A DNA stretch of 45,170 nt from Chrysochromulina tobinii (lineage: Eukaryota), in NCBI GenBank assembly GCA_001275005.1, contig JWZX01003301.1, positions 1 to 45,170 of the forward strand, read 5' to 3'. Of this stretch, positions 7,955-32,568 are shown one piece after another (the first letter of the stretch is position 1; every line of letters begins with the position of its first letter). A model generated the notes under the pieces. That model did not search any database and was not told the DNA's origin. It saw only the letters and a program-made list of their open reading frames with translations. The translations under genes were made by a program, and so were the position numbers.

Positions 7955-9411
7955 TCAGGGCATGTTGTTGAGCTTCTTGAAGTGCGCCATAGCCTCTGGC
8001 TCGGAGTTGAGCTTCTTCCAAGCCGCGACCTGCTTGAAAATGTGCGCGAGCACGTGACGCGCCGTGCGGTTCTCCGGCCGGAGCACCTGGCTCACGCCGA
8101 GCAGGTCGCCCGCCTCCTTGATGAAGTACTCGAGGTCGTCATCATTGCACTTGTTGGTGAGGTGCGCGAGACGCACCTTTTCGGACGCGAACTGATCGTC
8201 GAGGTCGAACAAGTCGAGGGCAGGAGGCGGGGGCTCGCGCAACGAGGGCGGGAAGACGGCGGGTTGAAGCGGCGGTAGAGGGTGCTCAAACTGCGGCGGG
8301 ATGAGCGAGAGGGGCTCGTGCTTGACGTCGAGGGTCTCGTAGAGCTTCACAGCCTCCGGGATGAGAGAGGTGTCGAATTTGAACAGCGAGTCGTCGAAGA
8401 GCGTCGTGAAGTCCTTCGTGACCTCCTCTGTCTCCTCGAGACAGCAGCGCACCTGTGGGGAGGGGCAGAACGCCGTGGTGAGCACTTGCATGCCGTGAAC
8501 TCGACCTCCTCGAGACAGCAGCGTACCCGTTCCGCGAGGGCCTCTGAGTCAGGCAGCTGGTGGTACTCGGCCACGTCGGGGTCATCGGCGTCGATCGAGT
8601 CCATCGTGACGCCGCCGTCGTGTGTGAGCCAGCGCAAGAGCACATTCACCAGCTTCCCGTTCTCCTCCTTATCCACCCAGTCGTCCTGCAGCACGTATGA
8701 CGAGCCGAGCACACAAAGGCGGCCGCCACCCAGAGCGCCCGAGACGGCGCCCGAGCGCGCCCTCTCGCCACTCCAGAGCGCGCAGACAGGCCGGTTGAGC
8801 GGGAAGGCGAGCGGCCCCGAGGAGAGCACGGGGAAGGCGGGCTTCTGCACCGCCAGCGAGCAGCCGTACGGGTACACGAACGACAAGTTGGCCTGAGGCG
8901 ACGACTCAGAGATTGCTGGCGGCACCAGCGCACCTGTCGCGGCGGACGCCGCGCGCGGCCGCCTGCCAGAAGCGACGTTGATCTCACGGTTGAGGACGCC
9001 GTTGGCAATGTGCACCTCCTTCGGGTGCAGGTACTTGTAGTACACCGTGCGCACCACCGCGTCCTGGTTGAAGGCTATGCCGTATTCCTCGCAAAAGTAG
9101 TTGACATTGGTCGCAAACTTGCTCTCACCCTCCTCGCCGAGCGTGATGAAGATGGAGCCGCCCTCCTTCATGTACTCGTTCATCGCCTCAAACTCCGCCG
9201 CCGAGAACTTCTCGCGCGGCCCCACAATAGCAAAGACCGACGCCTCGCGCAGCACTGCAAGAGTAATCGCATCCTTGTTGACGGCGATTGTGAACTGGCT
9301 ACCCAGCTTCCGTCGGAGCCCCTTGAGCCCCTGGTTGGGGGTGAACAGCTCGCGCTTTGACACGTCGAACAGGATCGTCTTCTCCTGACGGCCCACAATG
9401 GGGGCAGCCAT
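7955..9411 (-). CDS. IFT52: Intraflagellar transport protein 52; exons 9411-8527 and 8452-7955
   Basis: ILFDVSKRELF, GPREKFSAAEF, DAVVRTVYYKYLHPKE, FVYPYGCSL, PLSLIPPQFEHPLPPLQPAVFPP, LDLFDLDDQFASEKVRLAHLTNKC. A 74-nt GT-AG intron at 8526-8453 joins the two frames. Confidence 0.95.
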
Positions 9412-9599: not shown

Positions 9600-12446
9600 A
9601 TGGAAGGTCACGACCGGCGAGGCGAACCCCGGAGTCTGTCCGCCGCCTCGTTCACCAGTCTCGGCAGGCAGTTCGCTGCCCACTCCGCGGCTTGTGGTGC
9701 GCTCACATGGGCCTGGATCGACGCGGCGCGCATCGATGGCGGGCCCTTTGGTTCGCCACCAACTGGCTACCTGCGCGCGAGCCCGCTCCTGCTACAGACA
9801 CCTGAGCGCGGCCACGACGCCTTCATGGCGGCAGCGCTGGACGATGCTGATGCCGATCCGAGCTTGGCGGCGCCGATTCTCAGCCAGGCGCCGCGGCTCC
9901 TCCTCCATATCGTGCACAGCACTACCTACAATGTGCCCGTGCTGCTCCTGCAAGGCTACCACGCGGAGGGCTCGCTATGGTCGCCTGACGAGCTGCGCGC
10001 GCACCTCACCGCCATCCCTGGGGTGTCGCCGCCGCTGACCCCTTCGATGATCACACAGATGGAGCACCCCGCGCTCCGAACGCCCTTCTGCTGCGTCGAC
10101 CCTTGCCGAACGGCTACGCTGATGGGGCATGTGCTGCCGCCCGAGGGCACCGCCGAGGGCGACGGTACGCCCACCCTCGACTACCTGAGCGCGTGGTGGT
10201 CGGTCCTCGCGCCGCTCGTCGGCGCTCGCAGCCGGGCGGCGTGGTACAGCAACGAGCCGCTGGCACCACGGCCAGTGCGCCTACTGTCCGCCAGTGTGAA
10301 TGTTGTTGATGGCCTTGATGCTGCTGCTGCTCCCGCTGCTGGTACTGGTGCGCCCGTTGCTGCTAGTGATGGTGGACCTCCGCTGCCGCCACCGCCAGCC
10401 GCACTCGCACCAGCACCCACTACAGCGCCCTCGACGGACGACGAGCCCACTACAGCGCCTCCTCCCGCCCCTCTGCGCGAGGGCCAGCTGGTGCGGCTGG
10501 TCGGTCTCCGCTCGGCACAACGCTCGGCCGCGCACAACGGTCAACACGCGGTCGGGTGTGAGCCCGATTTGGAGGTGAATCCGCAGGATCTCGTGCCAAT
10601 CTCGCATAATCTCGCGTCAATCTCGCATAATCTCGAACCAATCTCGCATAATCTCGAACCAATCTCGCATGATCTCGATCAGCTCGATCCGAGTGAAGGG
10701 GTATCGCTCTTAGAGCTGCCCTCAGAGCTGCTGCATCGGACTCTCATCGAGGCTGCTGGTATGGGAGGCACGCCCGCGGCCTTCCGACCACTGTCGCGTC
10801 TCGCGCAGACTTGCCGCGCGGCGCGTGCGGCGGTCACTGAGCTGTGGCCATCGCTCACGCTCTCGCTGCTGCCGCGCGGCACTCTCGCGCTCCCCCGACG
10901 GTTGGGCGCGCTGGCAGGCGCGGCGCCAGCAGAGGAGGCTGAGGTGAGCGCCGACGCGAGGGCGGAATGGCGTCACGCGAGTGCAGCCACCATCTTGCAA
11001 CCGGATCGATCCTCAGCGGCGCTAGCGTGCCGCGCGGCGGCGGCGATCGTGCCACTGATGCGTGGTGGGGGCGCTTGCGCGCCGTGCTGGCAGCTCGCGA
11101 ACTGGACGCTCCCAGTGGCCCTGTACGGCCACACTTCCGTCGTCTGGCGTGGCCAGCTCATTGTCTTTGGTGGGCGTACCGCGGGCGGTGTGCACACGAA
11201 TGCCGTCCACGTCGCCGAGCTCACCAAGTCGCCGCCGGTGTGGTCGCAGCCAACGACGGCAGGCGTGCTACCGCGCCCGCGCCGGTTGCACACGGCCACC
11301 CTCGATCCGCATTCGGGCCAGCTGCATGTACTCGGTGGATCGCTGTCCTCACGCACGACCCCAGAGGCCGCCTGCGGGGACGCGCACGCACTCTGCCTCG
11401 CGGGCTGGTCGTGGAACGCACAGCCGGCGCCGCCGCCGCGCGCGCCATCAGAGGAGGCGTACGGACGGCTCATAGGGCGTGAACTCCCCGGCGTGCCCCC
11501 GCCGCGAGACTGGGCTTTTTTCGCGCACTCGTGTACCTACCTGGACCCTGAGCTGCTGATGGCGGCAACGGGCAGCACGGCCAGCACGGCCAGTCCGGAG
11601 GCCACTGCAACCTCCAGCGCCCCCGGGTTACCCTGCACGCGCATGCTGTGCCCAAAAGGATGCCTGCTTGTGTTTGGTGGCCTGCGCATGAGCATGGGCG
11701 TACCGGCGAGGATGTCGGCCGCGGACGAGGCACAGGTGGTCCAAACGGGCGGCCTCGTGCTCCCTATTGAGAGTCACGAGCTCCAGCGCTATTGCCTGAG
11801 CACAAGGGAGTGGGCCGGCGTGCAGACTGCTGGCAAGAAGCCCACCGCCGCCTTCCGCCACTCCGCCACGCTCGTGCCTCAGCGCTCGCAGCTCGTCCTC
11901 TGGGGCGGCTTCGCATGGCACTCGCTCGAAAGAGAGCCGTGGACCGACGATCTGCCGTGCAACACGCTGAGCGTACTCGGACTTGGGCCACACAGCGCCT
12001 TCATGACGTGGAGCCAGCCCGAGGTCGAGCAGCGAGCGTGTTGGGCTCTTCCGCGTGGTAGCCACTCGGCCACACTGCTCGGCGACCAAATTTTTGTCTT
12101 TGGAGGCGTGTCGGTTCCAGAAGACCGCCTTGTCGACGGGGCGGTCTTTGAGTGTGACCTGGACGACGCCTTTGTCATCGACACCACTACGTGGGAATTG
12201 CACACAACTGCAACTCTCGGGTGCAATGCGCCGGCGGTGCGCTCGGCGCACAGCGCACACGTCGTGCCTAGCCGGTACGTGGATGGCAACGTGATGGGCG
12301 ATGGTGACGGCGCAGCTCCGGCCCTCGCCCTACTTGTCATCGGCGGGCGAGAGTTCATTGCGGCGGCGGATCCCGAAGATGATGAGCACCACCCACGGGA
12401 CAGCGTACACGCGTTGATGCTGTGGCCTCAGCAGCCGACGCCTTGA
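9600..12446 (+). CDS. ATG10-like E2 domain fused to an F-box-like segment and Kelch repeats; probable in-frame intron 10575-10682
   Basis: N-terminal HIVHSTTYNVPVLLL...ITQMEHPALRTPFCCVDPCRTATLM...YLSAWWS (ATG10/Autophagy_act_C-like). LLELPSELL is F-box-like. Kelch-like blades include GHTSVVWRGQLIVFGG, PRPRRLHTAT, PRGSHSATLLGDQIFVFGG and RSAHSAH. One uninterrupted ORF. Confidence 0.75.
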   Translation: MEGHDRRGEPRSLSAASFTSLGRQFAAHSAACGALTWAWIDAARIDGGPFGSPPTGYLRASPLLLQTPERGHDAFMAAALDDADADPSLAAPILSQAPRLLLHIVHSTTYNVPVLLLQGYHAEGSLWSPDELRAHLTAIPGVSPPLTPSMITQMEHPALRTPFCCVDPCRTATLMGHVLPPEGTAEGDGTPTLDYLSAWWSVLAPLVGARSRAAWYSNEPLAPRPVRLLSASVNVVDGLDAAAAPAAGTGAPVAASDGGPPLPPPPAALAPAPTTAPSTDDEPTTAPPPAPLREGQLVRLVGLRSAQRSAAHNGQHAVGCEPDLEVNPQDLVPISHNLASISHNLEPISHNLEPISHDLDQLDPSEGVSLLELPSELLHRTLIEAAGMGGTPAAFRPLSRLAQTCRAARAAVTELWPSLTLSLLPRGTLALPRRLGALAGAAPAEEAEVSADARAEWRHASAATILQPDRSSAALACRAAAAIVPLMRGGGACAPCWQLANWTLPVALYGHTSVVWRGQLIVFGGRTAGGVHTNAVHVAELTKSPPVWSQPTTAGVLPRPRRLHTATLDPHSGQLHVLGGSLSSRTTPEAACGDAHALCLAGWSWNAQPAPPPRAPSEEAYGRLIGRELPGVPPPRDWAFFAHSCTYLDPELLMAATGSTASTASPEATATSSAPGLPCTRMLCPKGCLLVFGGLRMSMGVPARMSAADEAQVVQTGGLVLPIESHELQRYCLSTREWAGVQTAGKKPTAAFRHSATLVPQRSQLVLWGGFAWHSLEREPWTDDLPCNTLSVLGLGPHSAFMTWSQPEVEQRACWALPRGSHSATLLGDQIFVFGGVSVPEDRLVDGAVFECDLDDAFVIDTTTWELHTTATLGCNAPAVRSAHSAHVVPSRYVDGNVMGDGDGAAPALALLVIGGREFIAAADPEDDEHHPRDSVHALMLWPQQPTP
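10575..10682 (+). repeat. Probable 108-nt intron made of a ~21-nt tandem repeat (CAATCTCGCATAATCTCGAAC-like, ~4 copies)
   Basis: GAG|GTGAAT...GATCAG boundaries. Read-through gives the repetitive peptide ISHNLEP, and composition differs from the flanking exons. Confidence 0.7.
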
Positions 12447-24355: not shown

Positions 24356-24522
24356 GTCGCTGCGCTCATCGCTGCGCTCATCGCTGCGCTGTACTGCGCT
24401 GTACCTCTGCACTCCGTCGCGCTCCGTCTGCCCTGTCGCTCCTGCGGCTCAACCGCCTGCAGATCAACGCCTGCGGATCAACGCCTGCGGATCAACCGCC
24501 TGCGGATCAACACCTGCGGCTC
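24356..24522. repeat. Two minisatellite arrays just downstream of the strawberry notch stop: 12-nt TCGCTGCGCTCA-like (~3 copies) and ~14-nt GATCAACGCCTGCG (~5 copies)
   Basis: Tandem units directly visible at about 24356-24400 and 24441-24522. Confidence 0.8.
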
Positions 24523-27449
24523 TCACATGCTGCGAGGAAGCAGATTCCGCGCCTTGAGCGCGAGCACCTTTCCCACGTGGATGCCAGTCATCACTGCGAC
24601 GCTGTAGCGCTTCGTCTTGGCGTCGTAGTCGCAGATGTAGCCGCCGCAGAGATTGTACTCTGGCTTGGTCACGAGGTCCTGAATCGTCACCAGCGCGCCC
24701 TTGTTCTGGTGCGGCGGCGCGCCACTCCGGTACACGACCTTGGGCGCCGGCGCGGCACCTCCCAGGTTGGGCTTGACATCGGGCTTGATGTCGGGCTTCA
24801 CGTCGGGCTGGGTGCTCGACGCGGCGGCCGCGCCTGCCGGGTCGGCGCTGCCTCTCGCAAGGGCGGCCTTGAGCTTCGTGATGATGGTCTCCTGCTCGAT
24901 CTGGATGCCGACGATGCGCACCTCCTTGCCGTCCTGGTCATTGCAGCGCACGCGCACGATGCGCATACGCGAAATCTTGCGAACCTGCGCGCGATCGGAG
25001 GCCTGGTGGTACACGTAGCCGACCGCCTGCTGCATCTGCTCCCAAAAGGGAAGCACCGCACCGCTCAGCACGAACTTGGACTGGATGCGCAGGCCCACCT
25101 TGCAGTCGCCTTTTTCGCGCTTCTCCTTGCAGTTGGGCCCATGGGCACACACGGTGCGCGCGTCGTCGTACAGGCGCGTCCACGTCTTCCGGAGGAGCTC
25201 ATGGTCCTCCACCTTCTTGTAGAGGTACGCGATGTCCTTGAGCGAGGTGTCCTTACCCAGCCCAGTCGAAGGGCGCACCACCTTGAAGATGGGCACCGGG
25301 TTGAGTGCAAAGGCCTTGACGGGCCGCTGCAACAGGATCATGTGGCCGTGCAGTCCCTCCTTTTCGCGGCCGAGGATCGACTTCTCCGACCGGTAGAACC
25401 CCTCCGCCTTGCCGAGCGCGCCATCGGGGTTCGCCGCCTTCTTAGCGTCGACCATTTCCAAGGCGCGCTCATAGGAGATGCCGCGGTCGACGTCAATCCT
25501 ATGCAGCCAGAGCTCGACGCCCGACGACGGGTCGTTCGCGAGCGCGTGCGGGTAGCCCGCGGCCACGCTGAGCGACTCGCCGTGGAGATCGACGACGCCC
25601 TCGTCAAACTTGTCCTCCTCCTTTGCCTTCTTGATCTGCTCGTCCAGCTCAGCCGCAAAGTGCGAGAAGAGCAGGTTCTGCGTGCGGATGGGCAGCCCGA
25701 GCAGCCGGTTGAGGAAGGTCTTGACCGTGACCTTGTCCATGTCCCGCCCATCGGTCACACCGCACTCGATGAGCGCATCCTGCCCGATCTCAAGGTACTC
25801 GCGCCACTTGCGCTGCAGGTCGGCGTTGAGGGCAAGCCCGAGCGTCTCGCGCACGTGCTTCGGCGGCGGCGTCTGCGAGTAGAAATCTGGGCTCTCTGTC
25901 AGCTCGAGCACCGTGCGCATCGCCTTGCGCCCGTAGGACGTATCCACGTCGAAGTTGCTCAAGTCGCTCGCGTCCGCAGCCCGGCGGTCTCCCTTGGTGA
26001 GCGCTCCCATGTTCTGCAGCCGCTTGCACAGCATCGAGGCAAAGCGGCGCTCGCCGCCGGCGGCGGTCATGACGAGGCAGTACTCGGGCCCATGCAGCTG
26101 GTTGGAGCGGTGAGTGCGCCCACACTGCTGGATGCATTGGTCCGCACTCCACGGCAGCTCGAGTGTGATGTGCACGCGCACGCGCGTGTTGGGCACGCGA
26201 CGGTCGGCTTGGAGCGAGATGCCCGACGAGGCCGCCTCCGAGATGATCGCAACGAGCTTCTCGCCGTTCATGAAGGCCTTGCGCTCGGCTAGGTTGACCT
26301 TCTCCATTGTCACCTGATGATGGAGGCAATCAGTCGCACTCAGTGACCATCAGCACCCATCCTTTCGCTCGGCGAGGTTGACCCTCTCCATCGTCACCTT
26401 GTGTCCATCCGGGTCGACGAGCCCGTCGTTACGCTTGGCGTACACGGTCGCGCCGCTCGCGTCGCGCACGAGCCGCCCCTTGCGCCCGGTCATCTCGGCC
26501 ACCTGATGAGGGAGGCAATCCGGCGCACTCAGTGGCCATCAGCATGAATCAGTGGCCATCAGTGGCTGGATCGAGTCGTCCTCTCCGTCACATGCTCGGG
26601 CCCTCCAAGGGCGTGCAGCAACGAATCGAGCGGGTTGTCAGGGCACGTGAGCTTGTCGAGCCGCTTGTAGAGCTCGCGCTTGAGCTTGATGAGCTGACGA
26701 ATCTCGTGCGGGTTCTCGTGCTGGAACGCACTCGGCGGAGCGGCGTCGTCCTCGTCGTCGTCGAGCGCTTCCATGCTGTCATCCAAGCTGTCGTCCTCAT
26801 CGTCGTCAGAGGCCGCCGCCTTGCGCCGCTTGGGCGCCACCTTCTTACCTGCCGCCGCCACCGCCGCCGCCGGTGCCTTCTTGAGTGCGGCCGGCGGCGG
26901 CGCCTTGACGGCACGCTTGCTCTTGGCGGCGGCGCGATTGCCCTTGGGCCGCGAGTAGTCCGAGTCATCCTCATCAACGTAAGCGTCCTCGCTCTCCGAG
27001 TCCGAGTCCGAGGCCGAGGCCGACACGTCCGAGTCGTTGACGACGACGCGCCGACGCGGCGGCGGCCGCCGGCTCGGCGCTGCCTTGGCCTTGGCCTTGC
27101 CCTTGGCGCTGCTGTGCTGCAGGGGCTCGTTCTCGCCCTCGTCCTCGTCCTCGTCGTCCATCAAATCTGAGCCGTCCTCGTCCTGCACGACGCGCCGCCG
27201 TCTCCCTTTGGCTGCCGCGCCCGCCGCACCCGGCGCCGTGTAGCTCGCATGGAGCTTCCAACGGTCGCCCTTGCTAAGGTCGAGCCACTCCGAGGCGCCG
27301 TCGCCAAACTCGAGCTGGTGCAACGAGTTCTTCTTGACGGCGATCACCTTGCCAGTGCGCCACGCGCCCTTGGCGTTTTCGCGGACGTCGAGCGTCTTAT
27401 GGAGAAGGCCGGACGGCGCCTGGAACGCGTCGTCGTCGTCGTCCGCCAT

Positions 27450-30566: not shown

Positions 30567-32568
30567 ATGAAAAACACGGTCTTCCATACGTTGGCTCTGC
30601 TCGTCACCTCCTTCGACCTGGTCGCAACTGTCAAGGTTGTCGTCGTCGGTGCAGGCACATCGGGTCTCGCGGCGGCGCGTACTCTGACCGACACGTGGGA
30701 TACTGATGAAAATGGAGGACCCCTGGAGCTGACGGTGCTCGAAGCTGGGACTCGCATAGGTGGCCGTACGTGGACGCTGAATGCTTCCGAGGCGGGAGCG
30801 GCCTGGAACACCGCCGGCGCTCTGGGAGCGCCGACGGACATGGGTGCGAGCTGGATCCATGGGAGCACTTCGACACATCCGATCACCAAGATTGCAACGG
30901 CCCTGGGCCTGGCTACTGGTTCAGGACTCGTGAGGACTAGAGATAATTTGGCCGAGCTTCGCCTCTGCACCGCCGGCAAGACCTCGGCCTGCTCGGAGCC
31001 CAACAACGATGAGTTCACCGCGTACGAGAACCTGCTCTCACAAGCACAGGAGAGTGCGGAGGATTCGGATACGGACATTTCGCTTTGGCAGGCGCTCTCA
31101 GGCCTTTCGAGCTCGGGGCAGAATCGAGAATCGAAGCTGTTCCAGTACCACCTCGCCACCGGCGCTGAGTTCAACACCGCCGGGCCGGTCACTCAGCTGT
31201 CAGCCTGGAACTATGATGATGATTCCCAATATTCTGGCACTGAGCTCGTGTGGGCACAAGGGTACAAGGTGATGTACGAGGCGCTGCAGAGCGGCGCGGT
31301 CCGGGTTAATGACGGTTCGAGCACCCTGCAGGTTGCCGCCGTGGCGTCTGCCAGCCGACAGCCCATCTTGGTCACGTACAACAAGCGCGTCACGTCCGTC
31401 ACGTACAGCAGCACGGGAGTTGTGCTGACGACTGCGGACGGCAGCACGTACAACGCTGATTACGTGATCATCACGATCCCCCTCGGGGTGCTCAAGAGCA
31501 CCGACGCGAGCTCCAGAGTCACATTCAGCCCGGCACTCCCGCCAGCCACGGCAAATGGCATCTCTCAGCTTGGTTTCGGCAACGTCGTCAAGATCGCCCT
31601 CTTGTTTCCCACCGTTTGGTGGCCGACAGGTACGCACTATTATGGCCTTGCCCAGGCGGGGACCGACCGCGGCCTCTTCACCTACTTCCTCAACGTGCAT
31701 GCGCTGTCAACCAAGCCTGTGCTCATGACGTTTGCACTGGGTGCGTCTGCCGACACGGCGGAAGGGATGAGCAACGCCGCCGTCTGGACGCAGGTGCGTT
31801 CTCCCTCGCTTCTCCAGCACACCTCTTGCGCATCTCGTGCCTGGGCGTGGTTCCGGACGAACCTGCTCGTGATCTCCCATGCATCTCCCCCTGCATCTCC
31901 CTCGCAGATCCGGGCGAATCTGGTCAAGATCTTCCCGAGGTCTGTCACGGTCCCGACGACTGCGCCTCAGATGATTCGCTCGACTTGGCGCGCCAATCCT
32001 CTTGCGAAGGGCGCGTACACATATGTTGCAGTCGGTGCGTCGACCGACCCATCGCTGCTGCCGTTGGCAGTGCCATTCTCCGACCTTCCCCTGAGCTGCC
32101 CCGAGTCTTTTTATCATGGCAGGTACGTCGAAGAACACCATCACGGCCGCCTTTGGTGGCAATGTCGGAGGGAGGCTCTTCTTTGCAGGCGAGCATACGT
32201 CCGCGGCGTACAGAGGGACTGTCCACGGCGCCTTCCAGACTGGCCAGGTGCGCACACCCCGCACCTCCCCTCATCTCCCACGCATCTCCCACACGTACCT
32301 CCCATTCACCTCTCCCTCGCCCCCGTTCGTACCTGCTCAGGTCGCGGCGCGTGCCGTCAAGGCCTGCTCAGCTGAAGCGGGCACTGACGACGACGGCGAC
32401 GATGATGACGACGACGATGATGACGACGACGACGACGACGATGACGACGACGACGGCGACGACGATGACGATGCCCCGAGCTCCAAGCGGAGCTTCCTGT
32501 TCTCCAAGCGGAGCTCCCTGATTTCCAAGCAAGAAGCGGGCAATGTGCTCGCGCCAGCGACGCAATGA
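30567..32568 (+). CDS. Flavin-containing amine/polyamine oxidase with signal peptide and poly-Asp tail; introns 31794-31907, 32035-32122, 32248-32340
   Basis: VVVVGAGTSGLAAA, LEAGTRIGGR, DMGASWIHG, ADYVIITIPLGVLK, WRANPLAKGAYTY, LFFAGEHTSAAYRGTVHGAFQTG. The 88-nt intron resolves the frame switch. Confidence 0.9.
32386..32473 (+). repeat. (GAC/GAT)n trinucleotide tract encoding poly-Asp
   Basis: About 29 codons, almost all Asp, near the oxidase C-terminus. Confidence 0.9.

What the first reader, a model, noticed from the sequence alone, without database searches (positions are those of the whole stretch)
31784..31935. Intron that contains an internal copy of its own spliced exon-exon junction
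Seen: inside the 114-nt intron 31794-31907, segment 31841-31878 (CTGGGCGTGG TTCCGGACGAACCTGCTCGTGATCTCCC) matches the joined exons (CTGGACGCAG|ATCCGGGCGAATCTGGTCAAGATCTTCC) at 28/38. It reads WAWFRTNLLVIS against WTQIRANLVKIF. Pyrimidine-rich CATCTC(C)-type fillers flank it and carry the GT and the AG. Inference: a fossil of the intron-less target site, left by two nested duplication-plus-insertion events or by mRNA-templated repair.
Basis: partly seen in the sequence, partly recalled or inferred. Interest (0 to 1): 0.7.

Follow-up and report, generated by a model that had tools for sequence, protein, structure and literature searches.

The report
Intron holding its own insertion site
A 114-base intron in a haptophyte alga's amine oxidase gene is really cut out of the RNA and carries in its middle a worn 38-base copy of the spot it interrupts, likely left by two successive duplicate-and-fill insertions of a kind that likely also built other introns in this genome.

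Summary
Confirmed. Intron 31794-31907 of a Chrysochromulina-like flavin amine oxidase gene is skipped in 3 of 3 RNA runs. Its segment 31841-31878 matches the spliced junction at 28/38; 0 of 5000 shuffles and 0 of 89,668 window 38-mers match as well. Relatives match at 26-30/38, and 5 of 6 have TAG (a stop, and a possible old acceptor) at the inner joint, so the open frame is an accident of this allele. Three of 12 other spliced introns start with a 21-37-nt copy of their downstream exon followed by acceptor-bearing filler; two end, weakly, in a copy of the upstream exon end. The best reading (0.55) is two stacked events: donor filler plus a 10-nt duplication, then a 28-nt duplication plus acceptor filler. 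Rivals: capture of the junction from mRNA or an intron-less paralog (0.2); only the downstream half is a copy (0.15). No half-built relative was found; no other intron has a junction copy (1 of 13). The scan had already noted the long-duplication footprint in this genome (e1-2577349). A neutral fossil and a new variant of known intron-gain routes.

The parts
30567..32568 (+). Host gene: flavin amine oxidase (PF01593), 4 exons (30567-31793, 31908-32034, 32123-32247, 32341-32568)
   Evidence: Pfam E 5.6e-40; nearest named homologs from Chrysochromulina, 85-86%; spliced contig L001 translates without a break
31784..31793 (+). A: last 10 nt of exon 1
   Evidence: sequence
31794..31907 (+). Intron 1, 114 nt, GT-AG, between codons
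   Evidence: skipped in 3 of 3 RNA runs and in L001, L002
31794..31840 (+). X: 47-nt pyrimidine-rich filler that carries the GT donor; no detectable likeness to either exon
   Evidence: 416 and 984 of 1000 shuffles score as high
31841..31850 (+). A': worn copy of the end of exon 1 (7/10 here, 9/10 in L006); ends TGG here, TAG in 5 of 6 distinct relatives of this intron type; inferred former acceptor
31851..31878 (+). B': worn copy of the start of exon 2 (21/28 here, 19-22/28 in relatives); its last 9 nt also resemble the filler unit
31879..31907 (+). Y: 29-nt ATCTCCC-type repeat filler that carries the working CAG acceptor
31908..31935 (+). B: first 28 nt of exon 2
   Evidence: sequence
32035..32122 (+). 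Intron 2 of the same gene: its first 33 nt are a worn copy of the start of exon 3 (the simple one-step form)
   Evidence: skipped in 1 of 3 RNA runs among the rows shown and in L001; score 14, 0 of 150 controls; score 18 in L005
32248..32340 (+). Intron 3 of the same gene: GTGCG donor plus ATCTCCC-type filler; last 8 nt weakly resemble the upstream exon end
   Evidence: skipped in 3 of 3 RNA runs; 6/8 here (33 of 150 controls), 7/8 in L006 (1 of 100)

Best explanation
It is an ordinary spliced intron whose middle is likely a functionless fossil of the original intron-less site, likely left by two stacked insertions that each duplicated the DNA they entered. Step 1 (inferred): a pyrimidine-rich filler beginning with GT went in with a duplication of the last ~10 exon bases, whose AG served as acceptor, giving a 57-nt intron (X+A'). 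Step 2 (inferred): 28 nt further on, a second filler ending in CAG went in with a duplication of those 28 bases (B'+Y, 57 nt, frame-preserving in this lineage), the spliceosome moved to the new pyrimidine-backed acceptor, and the old acceptor and the stranded exon start decayed. The order could be the reverse. The likely agent is repair of staggered breaks, or a short mobile sequence that makes long target duplications; which one is not resolved. Shown: excision, the match and its significance, its presence in paralogs, and the one-step form in other introns.
For: Excision. Match beyond shuffles and genome positions. Relatives of the same intron type match their own junction at 26, 28, 29, 29 and 30 of 38 (the 26 is caused by a 1-nt insertion, gapped score 21 against 18 for the window), so the window is not a lucky extreme; its private changes lead away from the match. 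Inner TAG in 5 of 6 distinct sequences, and 20 of 25 read-through proteins end at that codon. The step-2 form stands alone in 3 of 12 other spliced introns: 20/21, 33/37 and a gapped 33-nt copy of the downstream exon start, each 0 of 150 controls; in 3 of 3 candidates picked by one filler motif; and stacked twice at L006:2242-2394. The step-1 form is weakly seen in 2 of 12 (L006:12144-12266, 9/12, 0 of 100 controls; intron 3, 7/8 in L006, 1 of 100). Five proteins lack intron 1 exactly while reading through introns 2 and 3, and paralog L016-L018 lacks all three, so intron-less states exist in the family. Side-by-side and repeated staggered insertions are described in Daphnia neointrons (PMC4202315, passages).
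Against: No intermediate (X+A' alone or B'+Y alone) among 45 intron-bearing proteins, many of which stop at the inner TAG and cannot show the second half, or the 30 loci. The upstream half is short and its last bases are also the common acceptor ending; 7/10 is reached at 0.67% of positions. The step-1 parallels are weak and were picked from 12 introns without correction. A 57-nt first intron would be shorter than all 13 spliced introns measured (74-404 nt), whereas X+Y together (76 nt) is of ordinary size and make. In the second intron type (L011, L014) the copy is not or barely significant (92 and 615 of 2000 shuffles). The tree is a quick one and the paralogs look mosaic, so gain versus loss cannot be polarised.
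Confidence: 0.55

Rival explanations
1. Templated capture: a break inside an existing ~76-nt intron (X+Y) was patched with about 38 nt copied from a contiguous junction, either the gene's own mRNA/cDNA or an intron-less paralog, and rejoined through the ATCT-CC likeness between the exon and the filler unit.
For: X+Y looks like one normal GTGCG...ATCTCCC...CAG intron such as intron 3. The copy ends where the exon resembles the filler unit. It is contiguous and ungapped across the joint. It matches the intron-less paralog L016 as well in the downstream half (22/28) and shares 3 sites with it against all intron-bearing exons. Paralogs appear to exchange sequence (mosaic tree). Transcript-templated break repair is reported in human cells (PMC12065846, listing and abstract start only).
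Against: Six other sites side with the host exon against L016; of the 3 shared sites one is synonymous and one lies in the filler-like tail. No relative with X+Y alone. No other junction copy in 12 other spliced introns, whereas one-sided duplications are common.
Confidence: 0.2
2. Only the downstream half is a real copy: an older 57-nt intron of unknown origin gained a new acceptor by duplication of the first 19-28 exon bases plus filler, and the likeness of its old 3' end to exon 1 is acceptor consensus plus luck, so there is no true 'junction' copy.
For: The step-2 form is the well-supported one. Duplication of an intron 3' end plus exon start is known (potato RdRp, PMC4974935, passages). 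A' is only 7-9 of 10 and includes the AG.
Against: A' begins with the same CTGG as the exon end in every relative of this type, in exact register with B'; 9/10 occurs at 0.01% of positions; it is purine-rich, unlike the acceptors of the other introns.
Confidence: 0.15
3. Tandem triplication of a 57-nt (19-codon) exon unit, with both outer copies later overwritten by filler.
For: The inner joint is exactly 57 nt from both real splice sites.
Against: X shows no trace of the downstream exon, Y none of the upstream exon or of the exon beyond B, and X and Y are not alike (20 tests in 4 sequences; the best is 94 of 1000 shuffles); the exon start is AT, so the Rogers AG|GT condition is not met.
Confidence: 0.05
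4. Pure chance, picked out by a scan of very many windows.
For: About 1e-4 per intron by the local-score null, hence about one per genome (my arithmetic); part of the match is filler-like; weak in the second intron type.
Against: Relatives score as high or higher (gapped 21-23 against 18, 0 of 2000 shuffles), although they share descent and are not independent; local duplications in introns are common here, which raises the prior.
Confidence: 0.05

Closest known systems
Daphnia neointrons formed by staggered double-strand breaks, including side-by-side and staggered-then-staggered classes (PMC4202315, passages read)
   Same: Exon bases repeated at the far end of an insertion; compound introns built by more than one event; fillers without a clear source.
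   Different: Exon-intron repeats there are 4-12 bp, here 10 and 28 (13-37 in other introns); fillers here are GC-rich pyrimidine repeats; the stacked result here places both duplicated ends side by side inside the intron.
Introners that recruit one splice site from the target-site duplication (Symbiodinium, Polarella, Aureococcus; a marine Chrysochromulina family with 4-bp TSD that carries the 5' site) (PMC9860276; 10.1101/2020.10.14.339549; passages read)
   Same: Both orientations proposed here (filler brings the donor, or filler brings the acceptor) are described there; shared filler motifs recur at unrelated loci here.
   Different: TSDs in the passages read are 3-9 bp and fixed per family; here long and variable. 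X and Y have no near-identical copies at other genes in the DNA examined and are degenerate repeats.
[quoted passage not shown]
   Same: Intron sequence derived from the adjacent exon without change to the protein.
   Different: A single tandem duplication puts the downstream copy before the upstream copy; here the order is upstream then downstream, non-exon filler lies on both sides, and the site is AG|AT, not AG|GT.

Membership tests
U2-type spliceosomal intron | GT...AG ends and precise removal from RNA | tested here: met
U2-type spliceosomal intron | Branch point / lariat | not testable with these tools
   Only contigs were available; CTTAC- and CTCAC-like words upstream of the inner and outer AG in relatives fit a recalled consensus but are common by chance and are changed in the window
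Introner (intron-generating transposon) | Several near-identical introns at unrelated genes, alike up to the boundaries | tested here: not met
   In 338,858 bases the intron matches well only at paralogs of the same gene; the sample is under 1% of a genome, so a rare family is not excluded
Introner (intron-generating transposon) | Short fixed-length TSD (3-9 bp) supplying a splice site | tested here: inconclusive
   A 5-nt repeat fits both ends but equals the common acceptor ending; the informative duplications are 10 and 28 nt
Introner (intron-generating transposon) | Terminal inverted repeats | tested here: not met
   No inverted pair at the intron ends among the 25 longest of 46 pairs shown; TIRs are not required of all Introners
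Rogers tandem-duplication intron | Duplicated exon unit containing AG|GT; intron starts like the downstream exon and ends like the upstream exon | tested here: not met
   Intron start versus exon 2: score 1, 78 of 150 controls; site is AG|AT
Compound staggered-break neointron (Daphnia classes) | Direct repeats shared by intron and adjacent exons, beyond chance | tested here: met
Compound staggered-break neointron (Daphnia classes) | Recent gain shown by presence/absence with clear polarity | tested here: inconclusive
   Intron-less forms exist but the quick tree is mosaic
mRNA- or paralog-templated repair patch | A relative that holds the same intron without the patch | tested here: inconclusive
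   None among the 30 loci and the proteins seen; sampling is small

The most novel reading that the evidence does not exclude
The 38 nt were copied from spliced mRNA (or from the intron-less paralog) into a break inside the already existing intron, which would make this a preserved natural footprint of transcript-templated repair that wrote an exon-exon junction back into its own intron.
Probability: 0.18. Interest if true: 0.7.

Novelty: new variant of a known kind. Interest (0 to 1): 0.4.

Why it matters
Most new introns have no traceable source. Here the exon-derived parts can be read off, and the same gene shows the one-step form (intron 2) beside the likely two-step form (intron 1). The wider point is the background: in this haptophyte a quarter of the other spliced introns checked (3 of 12) begin with a 21-37-nt copy of the next exon followed by an acceptor-bearing filler, longer than the 3-9 bp Introner or 4-12 bp Daphnia duplications in the passages read. 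That makes Chrysochromulina a lineage where intron birth and acceptor replacement can be counted genome-wide. Practical side: such in-frame, exon-like introns are read through as protein by gene callers (P0001, P0007). The single intron itself is likely neutral.

Tried and rejected
Coding retention or alternative exon: rejected; the whole 114 nt is skipped in RNA and 20 of 25 read-through proteins stop at the inner codon. Use of the inner AG (a 57-nt skip) was not among the 15 joints shown, but 44 rows were hidden, so nothing follows. 57-nt triplication: no trace in X or Y. Blind screen of all GY..YAG pairs in 152,512 bases for exon-start copies: 43 hits against 18-117 for six wrong-motif controls; swamped by tandem repeats, uninformative. 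Blind screen of 923 donor-acceptor candidates for junction copies: the top 25 rows were this intron's homologs, one-sided duplications or tandem repeats, no second junction copy. Filler motifs in viral contigs: 2, 0 and 0 hits; one looked like a haptophyte intron but was cut by the contig end. Prokaryote genomes: 80 loci fetched of at least 120, taken as chance 16-mers; 2 of 80 fit the loose tail pattern and were not followed. No whole genome was held and the records behind the loci could not be searched, so the genome-wide count was not possible. The careful tree did not finish; only the quick tree was read. A shared exon-length argument linking the two intron-less groups was dropped because their indels lie at different places (rows). 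Second RNA lay gave only 2 further canonical introns. Runs X18-X21 with shares of 0.05 or less are not used as evidence.

Full report
Setting. The window is eukaryotic. The region lies in a flavin amine oxidase gene (PF01593, E 5.6e-40) that starts at 30567; the nearest named homologs are Chrysochromulina proteins at 85-86% identity, so the organism is a Chrysochromulina-like haptophyte (inference). No whole genome was held.

The intron is 114 nt, GT-AG, between codons, and 31841-31878 matches the last 10 nt of exon 1 followed by the first 28 nt of exon 2 at 28 of 38, without gaps and without extension beyond these limits. I call the parts A [X A' B' Y] B, with X 47, A' 10, B' 28 and Y 29 nt; the inner joint is at the exact midpoint. 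RNA contigs skip these 114 nt in 3 of 3 RNA runs, and two contigs equal the window's exons at identity 1.000 with all three introns absent (L001, L002; taken to be transcripts). The segment is therefore intron, not coding sequence.

Chance. 0 of 5000 dinucleotide shuffles reach the ungapped score of 18; 1 non-homologous site does in 338,858 bases. 0 of 89,668 window 38-mers reach 28 matches; after dropping the 9 nt that resemble the ATCTCCC filler the match is 21/29, reached by 14 of 89,686 positions. With gaps, 1 of 2000 shuffles ties the window. This is about 1e-4 per intron; with about one intron per gene in 16,777 genes (C. tobin, PMC4580454, passages), about one such match per genome could be luck (my arithmetic). 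The window alone would not settle the matter.

Relatives. One metagenome scan gave 30 loci. At this site they fall into four states. (i) The window's intron type, 113-115 nt: 6 distinct sequences tested, matches to their own junction 28 (window), 26, 28, 29, 29 and 30 of 38; gapped scores 21-23 for the three tested beside the window's 18, 0 of 2000 shuffles. Five of six have TAG where the window has TGG, and 20 of 25 read-through proteins of this type end at that codon; the open frame is thus a derived accident. (ii) A second type of 86-87 nt (longer in P0007, P0016, seen as protein only) that shares both ends and two anchors of the copy but has a deletion and changes in the middle; its match is marginal or nil (92 and 615 of 2000 shuffles). 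(iii) Five proteins that lack intron 1 exactly but read through introns 2 and 3, hence likely from DNA. (iv) A paralog at 70% identity with none of the three introns (L016-L018). A quick tree of 52 N-terminal parts (careful search unfinished; rows under 250 aa, without the anchor motif, or with duplicate ends left out) scatters states (i)-(iii), which suggests exchange between paralogs and leaves gain versus loss open. No half-built intron was seen.

Other introns give the key. Thirteen intron positions are supported by RNA or spliced contigs: 8 in the window and 5 more in L006. Only this one has a junction copy. But 3 of the other 12 begin with a copy of the start of their downstream exon: 8453-8526 (20/21), 26314-26397 (33/37) and intron 2 of this same gene (33 nt, one gap), each 0 of 150 controls; 26503-26591 does so weakly (11/14, 1 of 150). 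After the copy comes a filler that ends in the acceptor and recurs at unrelated loci. Picking candidates by one such filler motif alone gave exon-start copies in 3 of 3; for a second motif 1 of 2, the other being cut by a contig end (its fuller copy in L018 shows 13 identical bases); for the ATCTCCC motif only this intron's own type (3 of 6). At L006:2242-2394 the unit of exon start plus filler stands twice, almost unchanged, before the true exon start: a fresh compound candidate, not RNA-checked. The mirror form, donor filler followed by a short copy of the upstream exon end, is seen weakly in 2 of 12 (9/12, 0 of 100 controls; 7/8, 1 of 100 in L006 but 6/8, 33 of 150 in the window). A blind screen could not confirm an excess because tandem repeats dominate it.

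Mechanism. B'+Y is the common one-step form, except that exon 2 begins with AT and cannot supply a donor; X+A' supplies it and looks like the mirror form. Stacking the two gives exactly A X A' B' Y B, with the old site A'B' stranded in the middle and an AG at the inner joint. A single staggered cut or single tandem duplication cannot give this order (reasoning). I put this at 0.55. Capture of a junction from mRNA or the intron-less paralog into an existing 76-nt intron explains the ordinary size of X+Y and three sites shared with L016, but six sites side with the host and no X+Y relative is known (0.2). That only B' is a copy is possible (0.15). Triplication (no trace in X or Y) and chance take 0.05 each. 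What makes the long duplications, break repair or a mobile sequence, is not resolved; the branch-point reading of some changes in B' rests on a recalled consensus and is untested.

What is known. Compound neointrons from side-by-side or repeated staggered breaks, with exon-intron repeats of 4-12 bp, are described in Daphnia (PMC4202315, passages). Introners recruit either splice site from 3-9-bp target duplications, including a Chrysochromulina family with 4 bp (PMC9860276, passages; 10.1101/2020.10.14.339549, passages; PMC12130899, passages). Tandem duplication as a route, with a variant that copies an intron end plus exon start, is in PMC4974935 and PMC3443670 (passages). Nine searches (listings and abstract starts) showed no paper on an intron holding its own junction or on 13-37-nt duplications in haptophyte introns; the library lacks most subscription papers and no supplements were read, where such families could be listed. 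An earlier report of this scan on the same genome describes a 15-bp-repeat-flanked intron family (e1-2577349); I met it after finding the pattern and it is not independent proof.

Verdict. Real, spliced, more than chance, probably neutral. It works like a compound duplication-plus-insertion neointron; it fails the tests for an Introner copy and for a Rogers intron. New variant of a known kind; interest 0.4, most of it owed to the genome-wide process that it points to.

Noticed in passing
window 8453-8526 (-), 26314-26397 (-), 26503-26591 (-), 32035-32122 (+): RNA-supported introns that start with a 14-37-nt worn copy of the downstream exon start, followed by acceptor-bearing filler; two filler families recur in other loci (L006:2242-2394 +, L011:8308-8386 -, L018:12780-12875 -).
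   Followed up: yes
L006:2242-2394 (+): Exon start (21 and 34 nt) plus the same acceptor filler repeated twice before the true exon start: a fresh compound intron candidate, not checked against RNA.
   Followed up: partly
L007 versus L006:10511-10623: A contig identical to L006 with 7 introns removed keeps intron 1 (which holds an in-frame TAG), hinting at slow splicing of this intron in that paralog.
   Followed up: partly
P0006, P0008, P0122, P0124, P0125: Family members with intron 1 exactly absent but introns 2 and 3 present, and a different, longer exon-2 segment; DNA not obtained.
   Followed up: partly
L016-L018 (amine oxidase paralog): Fully intron-less paralog at 70% identity on genomic contigs; retrocopy or ancestral state not decided.
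   Followed up: partly
window 10588-10678 (+): ATCTCG-type 10-11-nt repeat array inside a long open frame (Atg/Kelch gene), likely an in-frame intron with a non-GT or distant donor; no RNA joint seen.
   Followed up: no
window 24441-24519: 14/15-nt tandem array at the end of the strawberry-notch-like gene, with a 15-nt length variant in one RNA run.
   Followed up: no
window 32386-32530: The window's paralog ends in an Asp-repeat tail, while other paralogs continue into long C-terminal parts (some with a Hint domain, PF01079); L009 joins the 5' part of one paralog to this tail (chimera or recombinant).
   Followed up: no
L006:11948-12052 (+): GC-AG intron supported by a spliced contig.
   Followed up: no
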